The notes below the pieces were generated by a model. The model ran no database searches, was not told the origin of the DNA, and was given only the letters and a program-made list of their open reading frames with translations. A program made the position numbers and the translations under genes. Shown here in pieces: positions 459 to 10,729 of a stretch of DNA of 32,435 bases; the stretch's first letter is position 1; every line of letters begins with the position of its first letter. This stretch comes from Porphyrobacter sp. (GTDB taxonomy: Bacteria; Pseudomonadota; Alphaproteobacteria; Sphingomonadales; Sphingomonadaceae), in NCBI GenBank assembly GCA_018991295.1, contig JAGKSZ010000047.1, forward strand, positions 1-32,435, given 5' to 3'.

Positions 459-878
459 ATGACCATGCCCCCCTTCCACCTCGCCTTTCCTGTCGATGAT
501 CTGGCCGAAGCCCGCCGCTTTTATGGCGAGGTCATGGGCTGCGGCGAGGGGCGCTCTTCGGACGAATGGATCGATTTCGATTTCCACGGGCACCAGATCG
601 TTGCGCACCTTGCGCCGGGGCAGGCAGGCGACAGGGCCAGCAACCATGTCGATGGCCACGGCGTGCCCGTCCCCCATTTCGGGCTGGTGCTGAGCATGGA
701 CGATTGGGAGGCGCTGGCTGCCCGCCTGCGCAAGGGCGGGTGCGACTTCGTGATCGAGCCCACCATTCGCTTCAAGGGCCAGCCCGGCGAACAGGCGACG
801 ATGTTCCTGCGCGATCCATCGGGCAACGCGCTTGAGTTCAAGGCGTTTGCTGATCCGGCTAACCTGTTTGCCACCTGA
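459..878 (+). CDS. VOC/glyoxalase family protein (extradiol dioxygenase-related)
   Basis: [38 protein letters not shown] and [15 protein letters not shown] motifs; His/His/Glu metal ligands. Confidence 0.9.
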
Positions 879-915
879 GGCAGGGGCACAGCTGCAATTT
901 TCTCAGGAACTATCC

Positions 916-952
916 TTAACCATGCTGTTAAGGCTAACGAGTTGCTAACCAT
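916..952 (+). promoter_or_regulatory. Putative CtrA-type sites upstream of the DUF11 cluster
   Basis: TTAACCAT at 916-923 and CTAA-N7-CTAACCAT at 934-952 in an AT-rich gap; CtrA consensus is TTAA-N7-TTAA(C). Confidence 0.5.
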
Positions 953-973
953 TTCTGCGTAGTTGCTCGGAGC

Positions 974-1963
974 ATGAATACACATGCTCGTCTTTACGCC
1001 TCGTTTGCCACGATCCTTGTTCCTGCCATGCTGGCCGGCCATGCCGCGCCTGCGCTGGCCGGAGGGGTGACCGCTGGCACACTGATCGAGAACACCGCCG
1101 TTGCCAGCTTCGATGAAGCCGGAACGCAGCGGTCCATCAATTCGAACACCGTCACCGTGCGCGTCGATGAATTGCTCGATGTGACCGTGACCTCGCTCGA
1201 TCCCGGCCCGGTCAACGCCCGTGCAGGCGATGCCGTGCTGACCTTCGAAGTCACCAATCAGGGCAACGGGCCCGAAGCCTTCCGTCTCACGGCTGAAACC
1301 GCTGTGGCAGGCAATGATTTCGACGTGACGCTTCGCGCCATGGCCATCGATAGCAACGGCAACGGCACCTATGATGAAGGCGTCGACCAGATCCTTGCCA
1401 GCCCGCAAACAACCCCGGTGCTGGCGCCCGATGCGCGTCTTACCGTGTTTGCGCTGGTCACCGTGCCGCAAGGCGTGGCCGATGGCGATACCAGCAATGT
1501 CCAGCTGACCGCTGCCGCTGCTACCGGCAATGGTGCGCCCGGCACCACCTTTGCCGGTCAGGGCGTGGATGGCGGCGATGCGGTGGTCGGCACGACCGGC
1601 GCGCTGGCTTCGGCACGCGGCAGCCTGATCGGCGCGGTTGCAGGCGTTGCTCTCGTCAAGTCTGTTACCCTGCGCGATCCCTTCGGCGGCACCAGCGCCG
1701 TGCCCGGGGCCACCGCAAGCTTCCGCATCGAAGCCCGCGTCAGCGGCACCGGCGCGATCAGCAACCTTGCCGTCACCGACGCGATCCCGTCCGGCACGAC
1801 CTATGTCGCAGGCTCGCTGGCGCTGGACAGCACGACACTCACCGATGCCGCCGATGCCGATGCCGGGACTGCCTCGCAGGCCGCAGGCGTCGCTGTGACG
1901 CTCGGCTCGGTCGCGGCCGGGACCACCCGGACCGTGACCTTCGACGTGACCATCGACCGCTAA
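974..1963 (+). CDS. Secreted split-DUF11 protein (donor hairpin + Ig-like domain + acceptor domain); putative minor pilin/adaptor
   Basis: Sec signal ending ALA|G; N-terminal AGTLIENTAVASF...SNTVTVRV; DSNGNGTYD loop; C-terminal LVKS..VPGATASF..VTDAIPSGTTYVAGSL..VTFDVTIDR-stop. Confidence 0.8.
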   Translation: MNTHARLYASFATILVPAMLAGHAAPALAGGVTAGTLIENTAVASFDEAGTQRSINSNTVTVRVDELLDVTVTSLDPGPVNARAGDAVLTFEVTNQGNGPEAFRLTAETAVAGNDFDVTLRAMAIDSNGNGTYDEGVDQILASPQTTPVLAPDARLTVFALVTVPQGVADGDTSNVQLTAAAATGNGAPGTTFAGQGVDGGDAVVGTTGALASARGSLIGAVAGVALVKSVTLRDPFGGTSAVPGATASFRIEARVSGTGAISNLAVTDAIPSGTTYVAGSLALDSTTLTDAADADAGTASQAAGVAVTLGSVAAGTTRTVTFDVTIDR

Positions 1964-2011
1964 GCAACCGCCACGATCTCCACCATCAACCGAACTTCCA
2001 AGGGCCGCACC

Positions 2012-2503
2012 ATGAAGACCATCTCCAAGCTCGCTCTCGCCTGCGCTGCCATCGCCAGCCTTGCCCTGCCCGTGCTTCCGGCCGCTGCGCAGGGCGCGCC
2101 CGGGCCGATCACGCTCAATGGCGATGTGAAGGCGGTCAAGACCGTCACCGATGCCGATGGCAAGGAGCGCACCGAACTGGTCGATCCGACCACCATCATC
2201 CCCGGCGATCGCCTGCTGTTCGGCACGGATTATGCCAACACCGGCACCGAGGCCGTGACCAATTTCGTCGTCACCAACCCGCTGCCCGGCGCTGTCCGGC
2301 TGGCGCCCGATGCCGATCCGGCGCTGGAGGTATCGGTTGACGGCGGCAAGACCTGGGGGCTGCTCAGCGCCCTCACCCTCACCAATTCCGACGGGACCCC
2401 GCGTCCCGCCACCCATGCGGATGTGACCCACGTCCGCTGGGTGCTGGCGAGCATCGCGCCCGGCGACAAGGGCAGGCTCACCTATCCAGCCATCATCCGC
2501 TGA
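2012..2503 (+). CDS. Small secreted DUF11-like single-domain protein; putative chaperone/cap
   Basis: Signal peptide ending AAA|Q; IIPGDRLLFGTDYANTG..VVTNPLP..HVRWVLASIAPGDKGRLTYPAIIR-stop. Confidence 0.75.
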   Translation: MKTISKLALACAAIASLALPVLPAAAQGAPGPITLNGDVKAVKTVTDADGKERTELVDPTTIIPGDRLLFGTDYANTGTEAVTNFVVTNPLPGAVRLAPDADPALEVSVDGGKTWGLLSALTLTNSDGTPRPATHADVTHVRWVLASIAPGDKGRLTYPAIIR

Positions 2504-2574
2504 AACGCGGGCGATAACCGCCAAGCCTCGCGGGCGGGACCATTGACGCGGGGCAGACACTCGGGACCAAAACC

Positions 2575-3627
2575 ATGAAGACCACCAAGCAGCTGCTGGG
2601 TGCGGTGAGCGCGATTGCGCTCGTCGCGATGTCCAGCACCCCTGCTCTGGCCGCAGGGACCAGCGCAGGTACGACCATCACCAACACCGTCACCGTCAAC
2701 TACAATGTCGGCGGCGTGGCACAGAACACCCAGAGCGCAACCGACGAATTCACCGTCGACCAGCGCGTCAACGTGACTGTGACGGCCATCACCACGCCTG
2801 TTTCGGTATCGCCGAACCAGACCAACCGCGTGCTCGCCTTCGATGTGGCCAACCTTTCGAACAGCACCGTCGACTTCGCGCTGACCACCGCGCTGGCGGG
2901 CGGCAATGCTTCGAACATCAGCAACATCCGCATCTATCGCGATCTCGATGGTGACCGGGAGCTGGATTCCAACGAACTGACCGCCGGCCCGATCACCTAC
3001 CTCGATGAAGTCGCGGAAGATGAAACTGTCGCGGTGCTGGTCGTCTCCGACATCAGCATCAACGCGGTGAACGGCAACACCTTCGACGTGAACCTGACCG
3101 CCGCCTCGCACGCTGCGGGCACCGCCGGTTCGCTTGGCGCAGTGCTTGCGGGCACCGCTGGCGGCGACACCGCCGGCATCGACACCGTGCTGTTCGACGG
3201 CGCGGGCATTGCCGATAGCGCCAATGATGGCCGCTTCTCGGCGCAGGGCCGCTACACCGTGGCAGGCGCGGTTCTGACCGTCGCCAAGTCGAGCCGCGTG
3301 GTCAGCGATCCGGTCAACCTCACCAACAACCCGAAGGCCATCCCCGGCGCGACGGTCGAATATTGCATCACCGTGGCAAACGCCGCCGGTGCTGCCACCG
3401 CGACCGACGTCAACCTGGTCGACGATCTGCCCGATGATGTGACCTTCGCGTCCGCCTTCGGCATCTTCGTCAATGGCGATGCGACCTGCTCGGCCAATAG
3501 CGGCACCACGGGCGGCAATTTTGCTGCCGGCGCCGGCGCTGGCGGGCGTGACCGCGTCAGCGGCGCGCTGAGCGATGTGGCAGCGGGCCAGACGCGCTCG
3601 CTCTACTTCCAGGTCGTGATCAACTAA
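2575..3627 (+). CDS. Secreted split-DUF11 protein; putative major pilin
   Basis: Signal ending ALA|A; AGTTITNTVTVNY donor; YRDLDGDRELD loop; LTVAKS..AIPGATVEYCITVAN..LVDDLP..LYFQVVIN-stop; Cys264/Cys305 pair. Confidence 0.8.
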   Translation: MKTTKQLLGAVSAIALVAMSSTPALAAGTSAGTTITNTVTVNYNVGGVAQNTQSATDEFTVDQRVNVTVTAITTPVSVSPNQTNRVLAFDVANLSNSTVDFALTTALAGGNASNISNIRIYRDLDGDRELDSNELTAGPITYLDEVAEDETVAVLVVSDISINAVNGNTFDVNLTAASHAAGTAGSLGAVLAGTAGGDTAGIDTVLFDGAGIADSANDGRFSAQGRYTVAGAVLTVAKSSRVVSDPVNLTNNPKAIPGATVEYCITVANAAGAATATDVNLVDDLPDDVTFASAFGIFVNGDATCSANSGTTGGNFAAGAGAGGRDRVSGALSDVAAGQTRSLYFQVVIN

Positions 3628-3647
3628 GCCTGATCCGGACTTAGGTC

Positions 3648-6600
3648 TTGCGTGTTTTCCCCTCCTTGCGCCGTCTGAAAGCGGCACTGGTGCTTGCGCT
3701 CGTGCCCTTCGGGCTGGCGCAGGGAGGGGTTCACGCCCAATCAACTGGCAATGCGACCGTCCGCACCGTCACCAACATCGCCGAGGCGAGTTGGGACGAG
3801 GACGGCGCACGCCAGCGGATTTCCAGCAATATCGTTCGTTTTGATGTGACCGCGCAAGCCGCGCCTGCCCCCACCATCCGGGTCTATCGCCGGGTTGCGG
3901 GCTCTGCGCCGGGCGCCGAGCTCGTCTACCGCGCTCCGCAATGCAATGCCCTTGCAGCTCCCGCACAGCAGCTGCGCGCCAATGCCACCGCGAGCACCAC
4001 CCCGAGCGGGCCAGCCATCAGCACCGCCCGCACCGCCACCGTCGAGCCGACCGACAAGCTGCGCGGCGGTGAACCGCTGTTCTTCGAAATCACCGCTGCC
4101 AGCGCCAACCGCGATCCCAACGCGATCGATATCCTCACCGTGGTGCTCACCACCATGGAGGGCGACCGCGAGACCATGACGGTCTTCGAAACCGAGGCCA
4201 ACAGCGGCGTGTTTGCCGGCGTTGTCGATACGCTGCGCATCCCCCCGGCGCTGGTGCAGGAAGACTGCCGCCTCAGCGTTGGCGCCGACAGCCGCATCAC
4301 GGTTGCCGCGATGCGCCCCGGTTCCGATGCGATGCTCATTTCTGCCGATGTCAGCGTGCTGGTCGATCCCTTCGGCGTGGTCTTCGACAGCGAAACCGGC
4401 GCGCCCGTGAATGGCGCGCGCGTCAGCCTGGTCAATGCCGATACCGGGGCGCCTGCCACGGTGTTCGCGCCTGACGGCATCACCGCCTGGCCTTCCAGCG
4501 TGATCAGCGGCCAGACGATCACCGATGGCGCGGGCCGCGCCTTCGCGATGGGTGCTGGCGAATTCTGGTTCCCGCTGACCACCCAAGGCCGCTTCCGCCT
4601 GACGGTCGAGCCGCCCGCCCCTTACACCGCGCCATCTGCTGCCCCGCGCGAGGCGCTGGCCCGGGTGACACGCCCGAACGGCCAGCCTTACGTCATCCGC
4701 GAAGGTTCCTTCGGGGATATCTTCGTGCTCGACAATCCGACGCCCTTCGAAGTCGATCTGCCGGTTGATCGTCCGGCGGCGGACCTCGGCCTTGTCAAAA
4801 CCGCATCGCGCACCCGCGTGCAGCCGGGCGATGTGGTGTTCTACACCCTCACCATCACCAACACCGATGCCGCGCGCGTGCGCCGGAGCGTGACGATCAC
4901 CGACACGCCCTCGCGCTGGCTGCGGCTGCGCCCCGATAGCGTGCGCATCAACGGCGCTGCGGCTCCGCAGGCCGTGGCCATCGCGCCCGATGGCCGCACC
5001 CTGACCGTCAATCTGGGCGATCTGGCCGCAGGAACCGCCGCGCGCGTGACCTATGCCATGACCGTGCGCCCCGATGCTCCACCGGGCCGTGCGGTCAATG
5101 CCGCGCTGGCCCGCGATGCGCTGGGCCGCGAAGTGCGCGCCGATGCCGCCATCGACATCGCGCGTGACGGGATCGCCGACCGCATGACCATCATCGGCCG
5201 CATCACCGCAGGCCGCTGCACCCTGCCCGATGCCGAGCGCCGCGGCATTCCCGGTGTGCGCGTGATGCTGGAAGACGGCAGCTTTGCCATCACCGATGCC
5301 GATGGCCGCTATCACTTCGAAGGCGTGGTGCCGGGCACCCACGTGGTGCAGGTCGCGCCGATGACCCTGCCCGAAGGCGGCCGCTTCGTCGATTGCACGC
5401 GTTCCACCCGCAGCGCCGGCAGCGCGATCTCGCGCTTTGCCACAGGGCAAGGCGGGAGCCTGGTGGTGGCCGATTTCCACGCCGAACTGCCGCAGGGCGC
5501 GCTTGTGCCGGCACCTGCTGCTGTGGCCGAAGCCCCCGCTGATGCAGCCGCAACCAAGACAGCTGCGTCTGCCGCCACGGATTACATGGCGCTGGGCGAT
5601 GGCGAGGACGGTTTCCTCGCCCCCGCCCCCGATGCCAACCCCCGCGCGCCCGCCATCAAGGTCGCCGTGCGTCACCGCCGCGGCCAGACCGTGGTGCTGC
5701 TGGTTGATGGCAAGCCGGTCGAGCCGCTCGCCTTTGAAGGCACGCAGACCGCGGAAAAGGGCAAGTGGGCCGTCAGCCAGTGGCGCGGCGTGCCGCTGCT
5801 GACCGACAAGACCGTGCTCGAAGCACGCATCGTCAATTCCTTTGGCGAGGTTTCCAAGACCTTCACCCGCGAAGTGTTCTTCACCCGCGCACCGGCGAAG
5901 GTGGAATTCCTGCGCGATTCCTCGAACCTCATTGCCGATGGCCGCACCCGCCCGGTGGTGGCCATCCGCGTCCTTGATCGTAACAATCGCCCCTTGCGCG
6001 AAGGCATTTCGGGCAGCTTCACGCTGAACGCGCCCTATCAGAGCGCCGAGCAGATCGACCGGCAGCAACTGAACCAGCTCACCGGCACCACCCCGATGGC
6101 GGCGCGCTGGGTGGTCGAAGGCACCGAAGGCATTGCGAAGATCGAACTGGCCCCCACCATGGTCAGCGGGTCGCTGCGGCTTGGATTTACCTTTGACGAT
6201 GGCGAAATCACCCGCCGTCAGGAACTTGAAGGCTGGATCGAGCCGGGCGAAGTCGAATGGACGGTGATCGCCCTTGCCGAAGGCACCGTGGGCGCGCGTT
6301 CGGTGGCGGACAACATGGAACGGGCTGGCCGGTTCGACAGCGATCTTGGGGAAGATGCGCGCATCGCGCTTTATGCCAAGGGCCGGGTGCTGGGGAAGTA
6401 TCTGCTCACCCTCGCCTATGACAGCGCCAAGCAGCGCGATGACCAGCGCGTGCTCGGCGCGATCGATCCCAATGCCTATTACACCGTGTTCGGTGATGGC
6501 TCGGCCCGCCAGTTCGATGCCGCCAGCCGCGAAAAGCTGTATGTGCGCATCGAAACCGCCAGCTTCTATGCACTTTACGGCGATTTCCAGACCGCCTTCA

Positions 6601-8792
6601 ACCAGACGCGCCTTGCCGCATACAATCGCACCGCCACCGGGGTGATGGGGGAAGCGCGGCTTGGCGGGATCAAGGCACAGGGCTTTGCCGCGCAGATTTC
6701 AAGCCGCTTCCGGCGTCAGGAAATCCAGGGTCAGGGCATCACCGGCCCCTACAGCCTGTCGAGCCGCCGTATCCTTGCCAACTCGGAACGCGTGACGCTG
6801 GAAGTGCGCGACCGGTTCCGCCCTGAACAGATCGTCTCGGCCCGCACGCTGACGCGCTTTACCGATTACGAGCTTGATCTGCTGGCCGGCACGATCCGCT
6901 TCAAGGCCCCTGTCCTCAGCCGCGATGAAAACCTCAACCCGCAGTTCATCGTGATCGAATTCGAAAGCGATGGCGCGGGCGAGGCCGAATGGAACGCCGG
7001 CGCGCGGGCTGACTGGACGAGCGAGGATGGCCGTATCCGTATCGGTGCCAGCGCGCTCAGCGATGCAGGCCTCGAAGGCGCACGCGGCACCGCGCAGCGC
7101 ACCGATATCGGCGCACTCGATCTGCTTGCCCGCGTCGGCGAGAACACCGAAGTGCGCGCCGAAATCGCCATGAGCCAGCGCCAGGGCGACCGTGCGCAGG
7201 GCTGGCTTGCCGAAGTGCAGCACCAGACCGGCGATGTCGATCTGATCGCCTATGCCCGCCAGATCGATGCCGATTACGGGATCGGCCAGCAGAACGCGGT
7301 CGAGCGGGGCCGCCGCAAGGTCGGCGTGGACGGGCGCGTGCTGATCACCGAAGAACTCAGCTTCACCGGCAGCGTGTGGCAGGACGAAAGCCTGATCGAT
7401 GCCGCCCGCCGCCGCGCTGCGCAGGGGCAGCTCGCGCTGACCCGTCAGAGCACCAACCTGCGCCTTGGGCTGGTCCACTTCAATGATCGCCTTGCCGATG
7501 GCAGCAACGCGGCCTCGACCGTGCTGGAAGCAGGCGCGACCCAGCGGTTGTTCGATAACAAGCTGGAGCTTTCCGCAGGCACCGCCGTGGCGCTGGACAA
7601 GGCGGAAAGCCTTGATCTGCCGGCCCGCCACCGCTTGGGCGCGCGTTATGCGATCACACAGGATGTGCGGCTGGTGGGCACCTATGAAATCGCCAAGGGT
7701 GACCGGATCAATGCGCGCAGCCTGCGCGGCGGGATCGAAGTTGCGCCCTGGCAGGGCGGACAGGTGACCACGACGCTGGGGCAGGAAAGCATCGGTGAAA
7801 ATGGTACCCGCAGCTTCGCCGCCTTCGGCCTGTCGCAGACCCTGCAGGTGAGCCCCACCCTCACCCTCGACGCGACGCTCGACGGCAACCGCACGCTCGG
7901 CGGCACGCCTGCCACAGGCGATCTCGTCAATCCGGCCCAGCCGCCAGCCAGCGGCGGCCAGATCACCGGCGGACTGCTGTTCGAAGATTTCACCGCCGCC
8001 ACCTTTGGTGCTGCCTGGCGCAAGGACCGCTGGAGCATCACTGCCCGCGGCGAAGTGCGCGATGGCGAGACGGCTGACCGCAAGGGCGCGCTGCTCGGCG
8101 CGATCCGCCAGCTGGGCGAAGGCAGCCTGGTCGGTTCGGGCGTGACCTGGACCCAGGCCGAAGCGATCGGCGGGGCCAAGGCGGAGATCCTCGATGCCTC
8201 GATCGCCTTTTCGCACCGTCCTGCGCATTCACCTCTCGCGATGCTGGGACGGGTCGAATATCGCAGCGACCGCATCACCGGCGGGGTGGCAGGGGAGATC
8301 GGCGGCGCTGGCGGGGCAGGCCGCACCGCGCTGACGGTGGATGGCAACGCCACCTCGCGGCGGCTCGTCGGCAGCCTTTCGGCCAACCTCAGCCCGCGCG
8401 GGCACGATGATGCTGGCGCAGAAACCCGCCGCGACGAATTCGTCCTGTTCGTGGGTGCGCGCCACAACCTCGATCAGTTCGAAGGCAGCGAGTTCACCGG
8501 CACCGCCGTGCTGGTCGGCGGCGATGCCCGCATCGGCATTGGCGAGCGGATCGAGATCGGTGCCAGCACCACGGTGCGCAGCAGCCTCGAAGATGAAGTG
8601 ACCAGCTTTGCCTATGGCCCGACGCTTGGAATCGTGCCGGTCAAGGGGATGCTGCTTACGGTTGGCTACAATATCGAAGGCTTCCGCGACGGCGATTTCG
8701 GCCCGGCGCGCAACACCCAGAAGGGCGCCTTTGCGGCAGTGCGGATGAAGTTCGATGCCTCAAGCCTCGGCTTCCTCGGGCTGGGCCGCTGA
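3648..8792 (+). CDS. Large outer-membrane protein: N-terminal donor hairpin, Ig/carboxypeptidase-regulatory-like domains, complete DUF11, SdrD-B-like domain, C-terminal beta-barrel; putative pilus anchor/usher
   Basis: TTG start, signal ending VHA|Q; FGVVFDSETGAPVNGARVSL; LGLVKTAS..VQPGDVVFYTLTITN..ITDTP..GRAVNAA; GIPGVRVMLEDG..TDADGRYHF; from about residue 870 many amphipathic beta-strands ending GAFAAVRMKF. Confidence 0.8.
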   Translation: MRVFPSLRRLKAALVLALVPFGLAQGGVHAQSTGNATVRTVTNIAEASWDEDGARQRISSNIVRFDVTAQAAPAPTIRVYRRVAGSAPGAELVYRAPQCNALAAPAQQLRANATASTTPSGPAISTARTATVEPTDKLRGGEPLFFEITAASANRDPNAIDILTVVLTTMEGDRETMTVFETEANSGVFAGVVDTLRIPPALVQEDCRLSVGADSRITVAAMRPGSDAMLISADVSVLVDPFGVVFDSETGAPVNGARVSLVNADTGAPATVFAPDGITAWPSSVISGQTITDGAGRAFAMGAGEFWFPLTTQGRFRLTVEPPAPYTAPSAAPREALARVTRPNGQPYVIREGSFGDIFVLDNPTPFEVDLPVDRPAADLGLVKTASRTRVQPGDVVFYTLTITNTDAARVRRSVTITDTPSRWLRLRPDSVRINGAAAPQAVAIAPDGRTLTVNLGDLAAGTAARVTYAMTVRPDAPPGRAVNAALARDALGREVRADAAIDIARDGIADRMTIIGRITAGRCTLPDAERRGIPGVRVMLEDGSFAITDADGRYHFEGVVPGTHVVQVAPMTLPEGGRFVDCTRSTRSAGSAISRFATGQGGSLVVADFHAELPQGALVPAPAAVAEAPADAAATKTAASAATDYMALGDGEDGFLAPAPDANPRAPAIKVAVRHRRGQTVVLLVDGKPVEPLAFEGTQTAEKGKWAVSQWRGVPLLTDKTVLEARIVNSFGEVSKTFTREVFFTRAPAKVEFLRDSSNLIADGRTRPVVAIRVLDRNNRPLREGISGSFTLNAPYQSAEQIDRQQLNQLTGTTPMAARWVVEGTEGIAKIELAPTMVSGSLRLGFTFDDGEITRRQELEGWIEPGEVEWTVIALAEGTVGARSVADNMERAGRFDSDLGEDARIALYAKGRVLGKYLLTLAYDSAKQRDDQRVLGAIDPNAYYTVFGDGSARQFDAASREKLYVRIETASFYALYGDFQTAFNQTRLAAYNRTATGVMGEARLGGIKAQGFAAQISSRFRRQEIQGQGITGPYSLSSRRILANSERVTLEVRDRFRPEQIVSARTLTRFTDYELDLLAGTIRFKAPVLSRDENLNPQFIVIEFESDGAGEAEWNAGARADWTSEDGRIRIGASALSDAGLEGARGTAQRTDIGALDLLARVGENTEVRAEIAMSQRQGDRAQGWLAEVQHQTGDVDLIAYARQIDADYGIGQQNAVERGRRKVGVDGRVLITEELSFTGSVWQDESLIDAARRRAAQGQLALTRQSTNLRLGLVHFNDRLADGSNAASTVLEAGATQRLFDNKLELSAGTAVALDKAESLDLPARHRLGARYAITQDVRLVGTYEIAKGDRINARSLRGGIEVAPWQGGQVTTTLGQESIGENGTRSFAAFGLSQTLQVSPTLTLDATLDGNRTLGGTPATGDLVNPAQPPASGGQITGGLLFEDFTAATFGAAWRKDRWSITARGEVRDGETADRKGALLGAIRQLGEGSLVGSGVTWTQAEAIGGAKAEILDASIAFSHRPAHSPLAMLGRVEYRSDRITGGVAGEIGGAGGAGRTALTVDGNATSRRLVGSLSANLSPRGHDDAGAETRRDEFVLFVGARHNLDQFEGSEFTGTAVLVGGDARIGIGERIEIGASTTVRSSLEDEVTSFAYGPTLGIVPVKGMLLTVGYNIEGFRDGDFGPARNTQKGAFAAVRMKFDASSLGFLGLGR

Positions 8793-8821
8793 ACATGATT
8801 GCGCACGGCGACAGGCGGTTT

Positions 8822-8841
8822 GCTAACCGTGTGTTTACCAT
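8822..8841 (+). promoter_or_regulatory. Second CtrA-like box, upstream of the adhesin gene
   Basis: GCTAACCGTGTGTTTACCAT (CTAA-N7-TTTAC) aligns with GCTAACGAGTTGCTAACCAT at 933-952; both lie about 20 nt before an ATG. Confidence 0.45.
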
Positions 8842-8860
8842 GATTTCCTATCCGATAGGG

Positions 8861-10729
8861 ATGATTACGAGGTCGCCCTTCCCGCGCCGCTGGCTGGCGC
8901 TGCTGCTGCTGGCGTGCGCAATGCTGTGGAGCCCGGCCGCACAGGCGCAGAACTGCGCGCAGGCCACCACCCAGGGCACCGCTCCTGCCAGCTGGCAGAC
9001 CTATTGCTGGCTCAACCTTGCCAATTACAACGATACCACCGCGCGCAGCGCATCGGGCCAGAACATGAGCTTTACTCTGCCCGATGGCTCGACCCTGACC
9101 TTCAATGCGCGGGTTACCGGCACCAACCCGGCCTATAATGCCGTCACTTCGCCATCCTGGAGCGGATCGGCGGTCGGCAACAGCGCCTTCATCGGCATAC
9201 CGGGGCGGCCCGTGCTCTACTCCGCACAGGCAGGGACCAGCACCATCGCCATCACCAACATCTCCATCGCGCCCCCGGCAGGCGGCGGCGTGACGGTCTA
9301 TTCCTTTGTCGTTGCCGATGCGGAATCGAGCAATGACGGCGAAGCGATCCGCGTCACGACCAATGGCGGCGGCTGGCAGTTGTTCGATTCCGTACCGCCG
9401 ACTTCGGGCTCGACCATGCCGCCGATCAGCGGGGTGGGCAGCAGCAATGTCACCATCACCGGCGCGCCGGGCACGGTTGGCGCCTATATTCTTGGCAGCA
9501 ACAGCCCGACCAGCGTGACCATCCAGACCCAATCGGGCGGCCTGCAAGGGGTGATGATCGCCATCCGCTTTGCCACGATCCGGCTCCAGACCCAGTTCCT
9601 TGGCACGCGCGTGAACAGCGCCGATCAGCTCAGCTACCAGATCGCCTCGACCGCCACCGGCAGCGCGATCAGCAGCGGCACCACGACCGGCACAGGCGCA
9701 GGGCCCTTCACCACTGCACCGCTCAGCATGTCGGCCGGTATCCCGATCACGCTGCGCCTTGCGATGGCCAGCGGGAGCGCAAGCGCCACCACCGCCTACA
9801 CCGCCAATCTCACCTGCGTGAACACGGCAGGCACCACCCGCGCCAGCCTGCCCAACAACCTTTCAGCGACCACCGCCAATATCGGCCAGCTTGAATTCGG
9901 GGAATTTCTGGTCTGCACCTTTCAGGCTGGCGCCCAGCCCCGGCTGCGGGTGCGCAAGGCATTGAGCACCGCGCGGCGCTTTACCGGGGATCAGTTTACC
10001 GTGCGGATCATGGATGGGGCGAGTGTCGTCGCCTCATCGACCACGGCGGGCAGCAGCAGCACGATCAATACCGGCACGGGTGACACAGGGCTGGTGCAGG
10101 TCATCAACCAGCTGGCCTATACTGTCGACGAAATCGCTGCGGGGACCGGCAATCTCGGCAATTACACCGCCACCATGGCCTGCACCAACGCGACCAGCGG
10201 TTCGACGACGGCGCTGCCAACCGCAGTGGGCGGAACGATCAGCCTGCGACCCGGCGATGCGATCACCTGCACCATCACCAATGCCCGCCGCAATGCCGCA
10301 CTGCTGGTGATCAGCAAGACCAGCACGGTCATTTCCGATCCGGTCAATGGCACCACCAACCCCAAGCTGATCCCGGGCGCGATTGTCGAATATGCGATCA
10401 CGGTGCGCAATGTCGGCAATACGACGGTCGATTCCAGCTCGATCGTGATCCTTGATGTGATGCCTGCCGAAATGGCCTTCGCTACCGGCACGCCGGTGAC
10501 CTTCACCAACGGCACGCCGACCAGCGGGCTCAACACCTTCAATGCGGGCACGATGGTGCGCTTCACTTCGGCTGCAGGCGGGGCGGCACCCTATACTTAC
10601 ACACCGGCCGGACCGTTCGATGCCAATGTGCGCGGCATCCGCATCAACCCCACAGGCACGATGGCCGCAGCCACCAGCGGGACAAGTCAGCCGAACTTCA
10701 CGATCCGCTTCCGCGCGCGGGTGCAATAA
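8861..10729 (+). CDS. CshA/CshB-related fibrillar adhesin with two SpaA/CnaB-like repeats and a C-terminal DUF11 acceptor; putative tip adhesin (ORF track starts at 8795; 8861 preferred)
   Basis: AGGG before ATG 8861, signal ending AQA|Q; WQTYCWLNLANYN and FVVADAESSNDGE resemble the CshA non-repetitive domain; ..YTATMACTN..GDAITCTITN; LVISKTS..LIPGAIVEYAITVRN..ILDVMP..IRFRARVQ-stop. Confidence 0.75.
   Translation: MITRSPFPRRWLALLLLACAMLWSPAAQAQNCAQATTQGTAPASWQTYCWLNLANYNDTTARSASGQNMSFTLPDGSTLTFNARVTGTNPAYNAVTSPSWSGSAVGNSAFIGIPGRPVLYSAQAGTSTIAITNISIAPPAGGGVTVYSFVVADAESSNDGEAIRVTTNGGGWQLFDSVPPTSGSTMPPISGVGSSNVTITGAPGTVGAYILGSNSPTSVTIQTQSGGLQGVMIAIRFATIRLQTQFLGTRVNSADQLSYQIASTATGSAISSGTTTGTGAGPFTTAPLSMSAGIPITLRLAMASGSASATTAYTANLTCVNTAGTTRASLPNNLSATTANIGQLEFGEFLVCTFQAGAQPRLRVRKALSTARRFTGDQFTVRIMDGASVVASSTTAGSSSTINTGTGDTGLVQVINQLAYTVDEIAAGTGNLGNYTATMACTNATSGSTTALPTAVGGTISLRPGDAITCTITNARRNAALLVISKTSTVISDPVNGTTNPKLIPGAIVEYAITVRNVGNTTVDSSSIVILDVMPAEMAFATGTPVTFTNGTPTSGLNTFNAGTMVRFTSAAGGAAPYTYTPAGPFDANVRGIRINPTGTMAAATSGTSQPNFTIRFRARVQ

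What the first reader, a model, noticed from the sequence alone, without database searches (positions are those of the whole stretch)
2575..3627. Putative major pilin with donor and acceptor halves at opposite ends
SEEN: donor Asn37 (2683-2685), acceptor Lys238 (3286-3288) and Asp283 (3421-3423), separated by an intervening Ig-like domain. Asn falls at mature position 11 in both this protein and the 974 paralogue (xGxxAGTxIxN). Cys264/Cys305 may staple the acceptor. Codon use looks strongly biased (AAC/ACC/TTC) by eye. INFERENCE: the intervening domain would hold donor and acceptor apart and favour head-to-tail polymerisation; this is probably the abundant shaft subunit.
Basis: partly seen in the sequence, partly recalled or inferred. 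Interest (0 to 1): 0.8.

Follow-up and report, generated by a model that had tools for sequence, protein, structure and literature searches.

The report
Self-locking split-domain pilus shaft subunit
This gene from an aquatic two-membrane bacterium encodes a likely secreted protein that carries the two halves of a self-crosslinking domain at opposite ends, so copies are predicted to plug head to tail and probably lock covalently, likely forming the main shaft of a surface fibre of a kind that I did not find described in the papers searched.

Summary
Observation confirmed. Asn37, Lys238 and Asp283 lie where stated and occur together in 128 of 145 diverse homologues. The C-terminal domain is a CLIPPER/DUF11 isopeptide domain that stops before its Asn-bearing hairpin. 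The N-terminus supplies such a hairpin; a natural tandem fusion joins the two in that order. A two-copy model is one-directional head-to-tail: score 0.74, best of 3 controls 0.00. The gene is third in a conserved five-gene operon: A is a second donor-plus-acceptor subunit; B is an acceptor lacking Lys and Asp; D has a donor and a predicted ~39-strand outer-membrane barrel; E is acceptor-only with a variable adhesin head. Codon adaptation is in the top ~2% of the genome. Best reading: the major subunit of a covalently locked donor-hairpin pilus rooted in D and tipped by E. No bond, fibre or abundance has been measured. It works like chaperone-usher pili and Clostridium BsaA but belongs to neither. 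Nine paper searches found no description. This scan reported the same system earlier on other DNA (20 notes, at least 19 genomes).

The parts
2575..3627 (+). Gene C, 350 aa: predicted major shaft subunit (signal peptide, donor hairpin, Ig-like middle domain, truncated CLIPPER acceptor)
   Evidence: (DUF11 E 1.8e-6, profile 9-71 of 114)
2575..2652 (+). Likely Sec signal peptide of C (aa 1-26, ending PALA)
   Evidence: sequence read by eye; matches to mature C begin at residue 26-30 in most homologues
2653..2757 (+). Donor beta-hairpin of C (aa 27-61) with Asn37 at 2683-2685
   Evidence: DSSP strands; hairpin couplings N42-T52, T34-T60, V39-A55; forms the copy-2 side of the dimer interface
2758..3267 (+). 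Middle Ig-like domain of C (about aa 62-231), with a DxDGDxxxD loop at 123-131 and invariant N96
   Evidence: calcium binding by the loop is recalled motif knowledge, not tested
3268..3624 (+). Truncated CLIPPER acceptor of C (aa 232-350) with Lys238 (3286-3288), Asp283 (3421-3423), Cys264 and Cys305; ends before the Asn-bearing hairpin
   Evidence: aligns to positions 12-98 of the 133-residue complete CLIPPER in D, probability 97.2, E 3.7e-11; 131 of 145 rows end one residue after column I349
974..1963 (+). Gene A, 329 aa paralogue: donor Asn40 (1091-1093), Lys229 (1658-1660), Asp269 (1778-1780); likely minor or adaptor subunit
   Evidence: N 67/69, K 68/69, D 67/69 loci; donor profiles of A and C match, probability 98
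2012..2503 (+). Gene B, 163 aa: acceptor-only domain with Gly37 at the Lys site (2120-2122) and Asn89 at the Asp site (2276-2278); likely non-covalent cap or chaperone for donor hairpins
   Evidence: Lys site G/S/A in 69 of 69, Asp site N 67 and S 2 of 69; donor HMM 0 of 69; matches the C acceptor, probability 91.9. The Lys site was placed by motif alignment by eye, outside the hhalign-aligned stretch
3648..8792 (+). Gene D, 1714 aa: N-terminal donor (Asn43, 3774-3776), complete internal CLIPPER (K384/D419/N484), carboxypeptidase-regulatory-like domains, C-terminal outer-membrane barrel; predicted anchor and export channel
   Evidence: all four residues 60 of 60; Pfam
6225..8789 (+). Predicted very large beta-barrel of D (aa 860-1714), about 39 long strands by my count of the DSSP list, with a small beta-domain inserted after about strand 8
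   Evidence: AlphaFold2 pLDDT 73.4, pTM 0.66; matches only outer-membrane or organellar barrels, top Z 13.7 tied among PapC, VDAC and Tom40; no Pfam hit
8795..10729 (+). Gene E, 644 aa: CshA_NR2 adhesin-like head, two SpaA_3 domains, C-terminal acceptor (Lys508 at 10316-10318, Asp554 at 10454-10456), no donor; predicted tip adhesin
   Evidence: K 53/54, D 53/54; donor HMM 0 of 54; head domains vary among relatives

Best explanation
Gene C encodes the likely major shaft subunit of a surface fibre: its N-terminal two-strand hairpin is predicted to complete the truncated C-terminal CLIPPER domain of a neighbouring copy, and would then be locked there by a spontaneous Lys238-Asn37 isopeptide bond catalysed by Asp283. 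Shown here: the split of the domain, the conserved triad, the five-gene order, and which genes carry donors (A, C, D) and acceptors (A, B, C, E). Predicted: the head-to-tail docking and the barrel in D. Inferred assembly: subunits enter the periplasm by Sec. The acceptor-only adhesin E starts the tip. Each incoming C (sometimes A) inserts its donor into the open acceptor of the last subunit. B, which cannot form the bond, shields donor hairpins reversibly. The chain leaves through D's barrel and is ended and anchored when D's own N-terminal donor locks into the last subunit.
For: Triad N/K/D together in 128 of 145 homologues. It matches the Lys/Asp/Asn triad of the solved CLIPPER domain (K715/D748/N806 in 708-828; PMC12617251, section read), and D holds an unsplit copy with the triad in 60 of 60 loci. 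The C acceptor aligns to that unsplit copy and stops before the Asn strand. Natural fusion P0130 is donor-middle-acceptor-donor-middle-acceptor; its second donor (372-404) follows the first acceptor (251-367), and the complete-CLIPPER HMM runs across the junction (272-388, E 6e-11). Two-copy model: score 0.74, best of 3 controls 0.00; the mark was reached by 20 of 30 solved pairs and 1 of 23 solved single chains; runs agree in at least 97% of contacts; partner pLDDT at least 93. The interface is one-way: residues 27-64 of copy 2 against 230-289 and 349-350 of copy 1, with D283-V39', K238-A55' and A255-F59' among the best pairs. No sequence relative has a solved structure, which makes a pass from memory less likely. 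Operon: A in 69, B in 69, D in 68 and E in 54 of 70 loci, all on one strand. E heads are swapped among relatives (CshA_NR2, ice-binding, P-domain), as expected of tip adhesins. Relatives of the barrel sit beside giant single-chain repeat adhesins whose C-terminal region holds a complete CLIPPER like D's (L119, L120, L121, L123), which suggests that the polymer replaces a gene-encoded stalk.
Against: No experiment: no fibre, cross-link, localisation or abundance has been measured. The complex tool gave no side-chain distances, and Asn37 is in the interface list but not among the 25 best pairs. The donor profile does not align significantly to the tail of D's complete CLIPPER (E 0.25-0.82). The coevolution signal between donor and acceptor is weak (best rank 47; Meff 179), is not independent of the model, and cannot tell cis from trans. 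The strong coupling Y43-N111 (rank 16) is not in the predicted interface. 17 of 145 homologues lack the full triad (8 have Arg for Lys), so the bond is not universal. The second C gene in this genome has only moderate codon bias (75th percentile). L103 has C and D with no A, B or E hit in 19 kb, so B and E are not always linked. Nothing in the operon clearly stabilises the open acceptor groove.
Confidence: 0.68

Rival explanations
1. The same head-to-tail donor-hairpin fibre, but held non-covalently; the triad is structural or reacts only partly.
For: 17 of 145 homologues lack the full triad; the A homologue in L101 has Ser at the donor site. In BsaA, the N35A oligomer survives SDS without heating (PMC11580942, passage). 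Costa et al. note DUF11 domains without the bond (passage).
Against: The triad is kept in 69-70 of 70 loci for C and 67-68 of 69 for A, while B loses both Lys and Asp. That contrast is hard to explain unless the bond forms.
Confidence: 0.1
2. A short covalent stalk of fixed or near-fixed composition (for example D-A-C-E or a few C) that extends the adhesin, with C not much more abundant than the rest.
For: Barrel relatives serve single-chain giant adhesins. A scores highest in codon bias in 14 of 67 loci, and all of A-D are above the 75th percentile here. Only one C-C pair was modelled; hetero-pairs were not tested.
Against: C carries both halves and docks on itself; it has the strongest codon bias in 42 of 67 loci; it is the subunit kept in the two-gene locus L103.
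Confidence: 0.12
3. C is a self-closed monomer (or a closed ring of few copies): the hairpin completes its own C-terminal domain, as a circular permutation of CLIPPER.
For: The monomer model is confident throughout, hairpin included (pLDDT 92-98 per block, pTM 0.86). Coupling Y43-N111 fits a hairpin tip near a middle-acceptor junction in cis as well as in trans.
Against: The two-copy model prefers trans in all three runs. D (donor only) and E and B (acceptor only) have no cis partner. The monomer aligns from residue 5 to 324 on Antigen I/II residues 1116-1466 (Z 7.7, rmsd 6.8, 240 aligned), a weak hint of an extended shape. Linkers at both junctions are 4 residues or fewer.
Confidence: 0.07
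4. The polymer is real but is released as matrix or stays in the envelope, with D as a porin-like or envelope-anchoring protein and not an assembly channel.
For: D's barrel has no specific match: PapC ties with VDAC and Tom40, and Foldseek ranks SlpA and LptD first with TM-scores of 0.25 or less. The D homologue in L101 has an OmpA domain.
Against: D carries an invariant donor Asn (60 of 60), E looks like a tip adhesin, and the barrel family co-occurs with secreted adhesins in distant taxa.
Confidence: 0.05

Closest known systems
CLIPPER / DUF11 (PF01345) intramolecular isopeptide domain, PDB 9IFR (PMC12617251; abstract, sections 2.2 and 2.4 and passages read)
   Same: CnaA-like Ig fold with a Lys / catalytic Asp / Asn triad; disulfides are common; CshA_NR2-like heads and OmpA-like anchors occur in the same proteins.
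   Different: There the bond is within one chain of a monomeric fibrillar adhesin. Here the domain is split, with Lys and Asp at the C-terminus and Asn on an N-terminal hairpin. 'Donor strand' occurs 0 times in that paper's main text.
BsaA fibres of Clostridium perfringens, TasA family (PMC11580942; passages read)
   Same: Donor-strand exchange followed by a self-catalysed Lys-Asn bond between subunits ('exchange and lock').
   Different: TasA-family fold, Glu catalyst, one N-terminal strand, SipW peptidase, Gram-positive host, no outer-membrane barrel. Here: CLIPPER fold, Asp catalyst, two-strand donor, an intervening Ig domain, a diderm host.
Chaperone-usher pili (Fim/Pap: FimH tip, FimA rod, PapH terminator, FimC/PapD chaperone, FimD/PapC usher; roles from established knowledge)
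   Same: Incomplete Ig domain completed by the next subunit's N-terminus; acceptor-only tip adhesin; large outer-membrane barrel with an inserted domain; one operon.
   Different: No chaperone-usher Pfam hit in any of the five proteins. Predicted barrel of about 39 strands (ushers have 24, recalled). The links are predicted to be covalent. The candidate chaperone is a dead acceptor, not a strand donor. The terminating donor sits on the barrel protein itself.
Archaeal thread Saci_0406 (PMC9715654; passages read)
   Same: Head-to-tail filament with donor-strand complementation and proposed intermolecular isopeptide bonds.
   Different: The bond joins Asn57 to the N-terminal amino group of subunit n+2; different fold family; no outer membrane.
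Pam pili of CPR bacteria (PMC13278184) and Elr/WxL pili of Enterococcus (10.64898/2026.10.17.759780); passages read
   Same: Two-domain pilins with a truncated C-terminal Ig-like domain joined by donor-strand exchange; in Elr, modular tips on a constant attachment module.
   Different: Non-covalent strand exchange ('isopeptide' 0 times in the Pam paper), strand-donating membrane-anchored chaperones, no outer-membrane barrel; 'DUF11' 0 times in the Pam paper.

Membership tests
CLIPPER / DUF11 (PF01345) | Pfam DUF11 match above the curated cut-off | tested here: met
   28.7 bits against cut-off 24.6, residues 251-311; TIGR01451 33.8 against 24
CLIPPER / DUF11 (PF01345) | Lys on the first strand and catalytic Asp conserved | tested here: met
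   K238 132/145, D283 139/145
CLIPPER / DUF11 (PF01345) | Complete domain, with the bond-forming Asn downstream of Lys and Asp in the same chain segment (intramolecular bond) | tested here: not met
   the acceptor ends at position 98 of the 133-residue complete domain; 131 of 145 rows end one residue later
CLIPPER / DUF11 (PF01345) | Isopeptide bond actually formed | not testable with these tools
Chaperone-usher pili | Subunit with incomplete Ig fold completed by the N-terminal extension of the next subunit | tested here: met
   predicted only, with a two-strand hairpin
Chaperone-usher pili | PapD/FimC-family chaperone gene in the cluster | tested here: not met
   none of the five proteins matches a chaperone Pfam at E up to 0.1; B matches DUF11 weakly and the C acceptor
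Chaperone-usher pili | PapC/FimD-family usher by sequence | tested here: not met
   no usher family hit for D or its barrel region
Chaperone-usher pili | Usher-like barrel fold | tested here: inconclusive
   PapC Z 13.7, rmsd 6.6, 312 aligned, tied with VDAC and Tom40; SprA Z 13.0
BsaA / TasA family | TasA-family sequence with SipW signal peptidase in the operon | tested here: not met
   no TasA-family or peptidase hit in the five operon proteins or the flanking genes scanned; profile search of PDB sequences gave 0 hits at E up to 5
BsaA / TasA family | Self-catalysed intermolecular Lys-Asn bond after strand exchange | tested here: inconclusive
   residues conserved and in the predicted interface; bond not measured
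Sortase-dependent pili | C-terminal LPXTG-type sorting signal and a sortase gene | tested here: not met
   C ends on the last core strand; no sortase hit in the operon
Type V pili | Lipoprotein precursors with a lipobox Cys | tested here: not met
   C has no Cys before residue 264

The most novel reading that the evidence does not exclude
A distinct class of pilus and secretion pathway of two-membrane bacteria. Its shaft is one covalent chain built without sortase, ATP or a strand-donating chaperone, from natural tag-and-catcher halves of the CLIPPER domain. It is exported through a previously undescribed barrel of about 39 strands that ends and anchors its own fibre with an N-terminal donor. 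The same barrel family also exports giant single-chain adhesins in Sinorhizobium, Vibrio, Ralstonia and Eleftheria.
Probability: 0.55. Interest if true: 0.88.

Novelty: new variant of a known kind. Interest (0 to 1): 0.76.

Why it matters
The enzyme-free, covalently linked fibres I found in print are from Gram-positive bacteria and archaea. A version in two-membrane bacteria with its own very large outer-membrane channel would add a pilus class and give a function to a widespread set of 'DUF11 domain-containing' genes: 1902 clusters at 50% identity match C at E up to 0.001, and similar clusters occur in alpha- and other proteobacteria and a cyanobacterium. Swappable tips (CshA-like, ice-binding, P-domain) would make it a general adhesion platform of aquatic bacteria. 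The donor-acceptor pairs would be natural SpyTag/SpyCatcher-like reagents, possibly with orthogonal specificities, and a self-polymerising protein material. The central claim can be tested with one recombinant protein and three point mutants.

Tried and rejected
Solved relatives by sequence: phmmer gave 3 chance hits at E about 0.1; the profile gave 0 at E up to 5. Fold searches of C gave generic Ig matches only; 9IFR was not listed, which does not exclude it. Donor hairpin against the tail of D's complete CLIPPER: not significant by local or global hhalign; P0130 gave the link instead. Coevolution: the 25 listed model contacts have mean z 0.54 against 0.02 for all donor-acceptor pairs (P 0.005), but three pairs drive this and the model used an overlapping alignment, so I treat it as weak. 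Expression: no RNA holder listed. The L3 gene was not found in this 78%-complete genome, so a 13-gene codon reference was used. Promoter and terminator scan of 800-4000: 1 and 1 site against 0.6 and 1.9 expected, nothing to report. Ten distant homologues looked up for names carried none. ESM Atlas neighbours are DUF11 or hypothetical clusters with no functional name. Paper searches gave no description of this system; one search was swamped by unrelated papers. PMC12282271 and PMC9957290 mention DUF11 only in passing, and the Litorilinea DUF11 grappling hook is a single-chain repeat protein. The library lacks most subscription journals, and I read no supplements; tables S2-S5 of PMC12617251 could bear on split members.

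Full report
Observation. The family is large: 1902 representatives of 50%-identity clusters at E up to 0.001. I aligned the mature query with 137 full-length representatives of the best 150 (13 fragments or longer forms left out) and 7 closer homologues. Asn37 is kept in 139 of 145 rows, Lys238 in 132, Asp283 in 139, and all three in 128; mean column identity is 21%. Cys264 always has a partner near 305 (119 of 119 rows that carry it).

Anatomy of C. AlphaFold2 gives mean pLDDT 97.3. Structural matches split the mature chain into a hairpin (27-61), an Ig-like middle domain (about 63-231) and a C-terminal domain (231-350). The last is DUF11, above the Pfam cut-off. DUF11 was renamed CLIPPER and solved with an intramolecular Lys715-Asn806 bond and presumed catalytic Asp748 (PMC12617251, section read). 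Gene D holds a complete internal CLIPPER with K384/D419/N484 in 60 of 60 loci. The C acceptor aligns to positions 12-98 of that 133-residue domain and ends there (probability 97.2); 131 of 145 rows stop one residue after the last core strand. So the Asn-bearing hairpin is missing from the C-terminus. The N-terminal hairpin did not align significantly to D's CLIPPER tail (E 0.25-0.82). But P0130, a natural tandem form seen on 2 contigs, reads donor-middle-acceptor-donor-middle-acceptor. Its second donor starts 5 residues after the first acceptor, and the complete-CLIPPER HMM spans the junction (E 6e-11). That is one sequence, but its two repeats have diverged, so it is unlikely to be an assembly duplicate.

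Cis or trans. A two-copy prediction scored 0.74 against 0.00 for the best of 3 controls; the mark was reached by 20 of 30 solved pairs and 1 of 23 solved single chains; the runs agree in at least 97% of contacts and partner pLDDT is at least 93. The interface is one-way: residues 27-64 (and a loop at 194-217) of one copy against 230-289, 335 and 349-350 (and 79-82, 162-163) of the other. This leaves a free donor at one end and a free acceptor at the other. D283 lies against V39', K238 against A55', and Asn37' is in the interface set; side-chain distances were not given, so the reactive geometry is inferred. No sequence relative is solved. Coevolution recovers the hairpin register and weakly the pairs V45-A276, F59-A255 and V45-A232 (ranks 47, 91, 127), but cannot separate cis from trans. 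The strong coupling Y43-N111 is not in the listed interface and remains unexplained.

The operon. Five genes on one strand recur in the order A-B-C-D-E. Of 70 loci found with C, A is seen in 69, B in 69, D in 68 and E in 54. Of the 16 without E, 11 end at a contig edge, one has an E-like gene that best matched C, and four have full flanks with no E hit. Donor HMM hits: A 67 of 69, C 70 of 70, B 0 of 69, E 0 of 54 (circular for A and C, which helped build the HMM). D has the donor Asn in 60 of 60 loci with a usable N-terminus. E keeps Lys and Asp (53 of 54 each) behind a variable head: CshA_NR2 here, P-domain in L011, L038, L045 and L101, ice-binding in L102. B has no Lys (0 of 69) and no Asp (0 of 69) at the two sites. 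The last 855 residues of D model as a barrel with about 39 long strands and an inserted small domain (pLDDT 73.4). They match only membrane barrels, none specifically, and no Pfam family.

Spread. A sample of 401 genomes of the phylum gave 15 with a match at E up to 1e-15, this genome included; at most five candidates were scored per genome, so this is a lower bound. Full A-E sets occur in two genomes of another class (L101, L102). A reduced C-D pair occurs in L103 (L104 looks the same). Related donor/acceptor clusters occur on Acinetobacter haemolyticus and Picosynechococcus plasmids. Barrel relatives also sit behind giant single-chain repeat adhesins in Sinorhizobium meliloti, Eleftheria terrae, Vibrio campbellii and Ralstonia. 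Those adhesins carry a complete CLIPPER near their C-terminus, like the one in D's N-terminal part. I infer that D's N-terminal part is the base of the stalk, and that the covalent polymer replaces a gene-encoded repeat stalk. This genome has a second A-B-C-D cluster on contig C244.

Is C the major subunit? Against 11 ribosomal proteins, IF3 and a GroEL fragment, C is at the 97.9th (CAI) and 98.5th (log-ratio) percentile of 1898 crudely called genes; A 75/90, B 94/94, D 87/90, E 49/52. With the same weights C is top in 42 of 67 related loci. The C244 copy is only at 75/69, though still above its own A and B. This is supportive, not proof; no RNA run was listed.

Mechanism. Shown: split domain, conserved triad, complementary gene set, codon bias. 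Predicted: trans docking, barrel. Inferred: Sec export, tip-first growth at the base with E as starter, B as reversible donor cap, passage through D, termination on D's donor, and the covalent bond itself. Growth at the distal end from a surface-exposed D donor is equally compatible with the parts list. My rough odds: trans complementation 0.85, bond given trans 0.85, surface fibre through D 0.8, C as major subunit 0.75; these are not independent, and I put the whole at about 0.68.

Comparison and novelty. It works like a chaperone-usher pilus (roles from established knowledge) locked by the chemistry of C. perfringens BsaA (PMC11580942, passages). It fails membership of both on chaperone, usher and TasA/SipW homology. 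The archaeal thread (PMC9715654, passages), Pam pili (PMC13278184, passages) and Elr pili (bioRxiv 10.64898/2026.10.17.759780, passages) share strand donation but not the parts. Nine searches found no paper describing this system; subscription journals and supplements were not seen. I class it as a new variant of a known kind, because each principle has precedent, with a 0.55 chance that it stands as its own pilus and secretion class. I had stated this reading before consulting earlier notes. A later word search showed 20 notes of this scan, in at least 19 genomes, with the same idea (8 shown); they are unchecked AI notes and add no independent evidence.

Noticed in passing
G000:C244:2198-8653 (L117): A second A-B-C-D cluster in the same genome, cut by the contig end, with lower codon bias; the best A1-profile hit in the genome (E 1.6e-130).
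   Followed up: partly
P0130: Natural tandem fusion of two C-like units that rebuilds a complete CLIPPER at the junction.
   Followed up: yes
L119:500-14757, L120:4482-16715, L121:1789-16688, L123:7483-16661: Two-gene version: a giant single-chain repeat adhesin (1858-3771 aa ORFs) followed by a stand-alone relative of D's barrel, variously annotated as hypothetical, OmpA family or TonB-dependent receptor; a candidate undescribed adhesin export pair.
   Followed up: partly
L102:606-1817 (-): E-type tip with an ice-binding (PF11999) head on the acceptor domain.
   Followed up: partly
L105:8742-10139 (-): Orphan E-type gene (unknown head, C-like acceptor) away from the operon in G352, suggesting spare tips encoded elsewhere.
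   Followed up: partly
L103:5336-11930 (-) and L104:3048-9643 (-): Reduced C-D locus just upstream of the trp genes, with no A, B or E hit in 19 kb of L103.
   Followed up: partly
L122:5986-21856: Cyanobacterial version in which D is two genes (541 aa with CLIPPER; 1543 aa with barrel) and B keeps the Asp but appears to lack the Lys.
   Followed up: partly
L118:4999-18506: Acinetobacter haemolyticus plasmid cluster whose main subunit gene is annotated in several short pieces, next to a transposase.
   Followed up: no
window 2941-2967 (C residues 123-131): DxDGDxxxD loop and conserved acidic residues (D62, D203, D208, D214, D218) in the middle domain; possible calcium sites (motif recalled).
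   Followed up: no
window 459-878 (+): Glyoxalase/VOC-family gene directly upstream of A; found there in 16 of 70 loci, mostly the closest relatives, so probably not part of the system.
   Followed up: partly
window 2500-2580 and 910-935: Stem-loop between B and C (-24.6 kcal/mol for the 81-base stretch, no shuffle control) and a short inverted repeat upstream of A.
   Followed up: no
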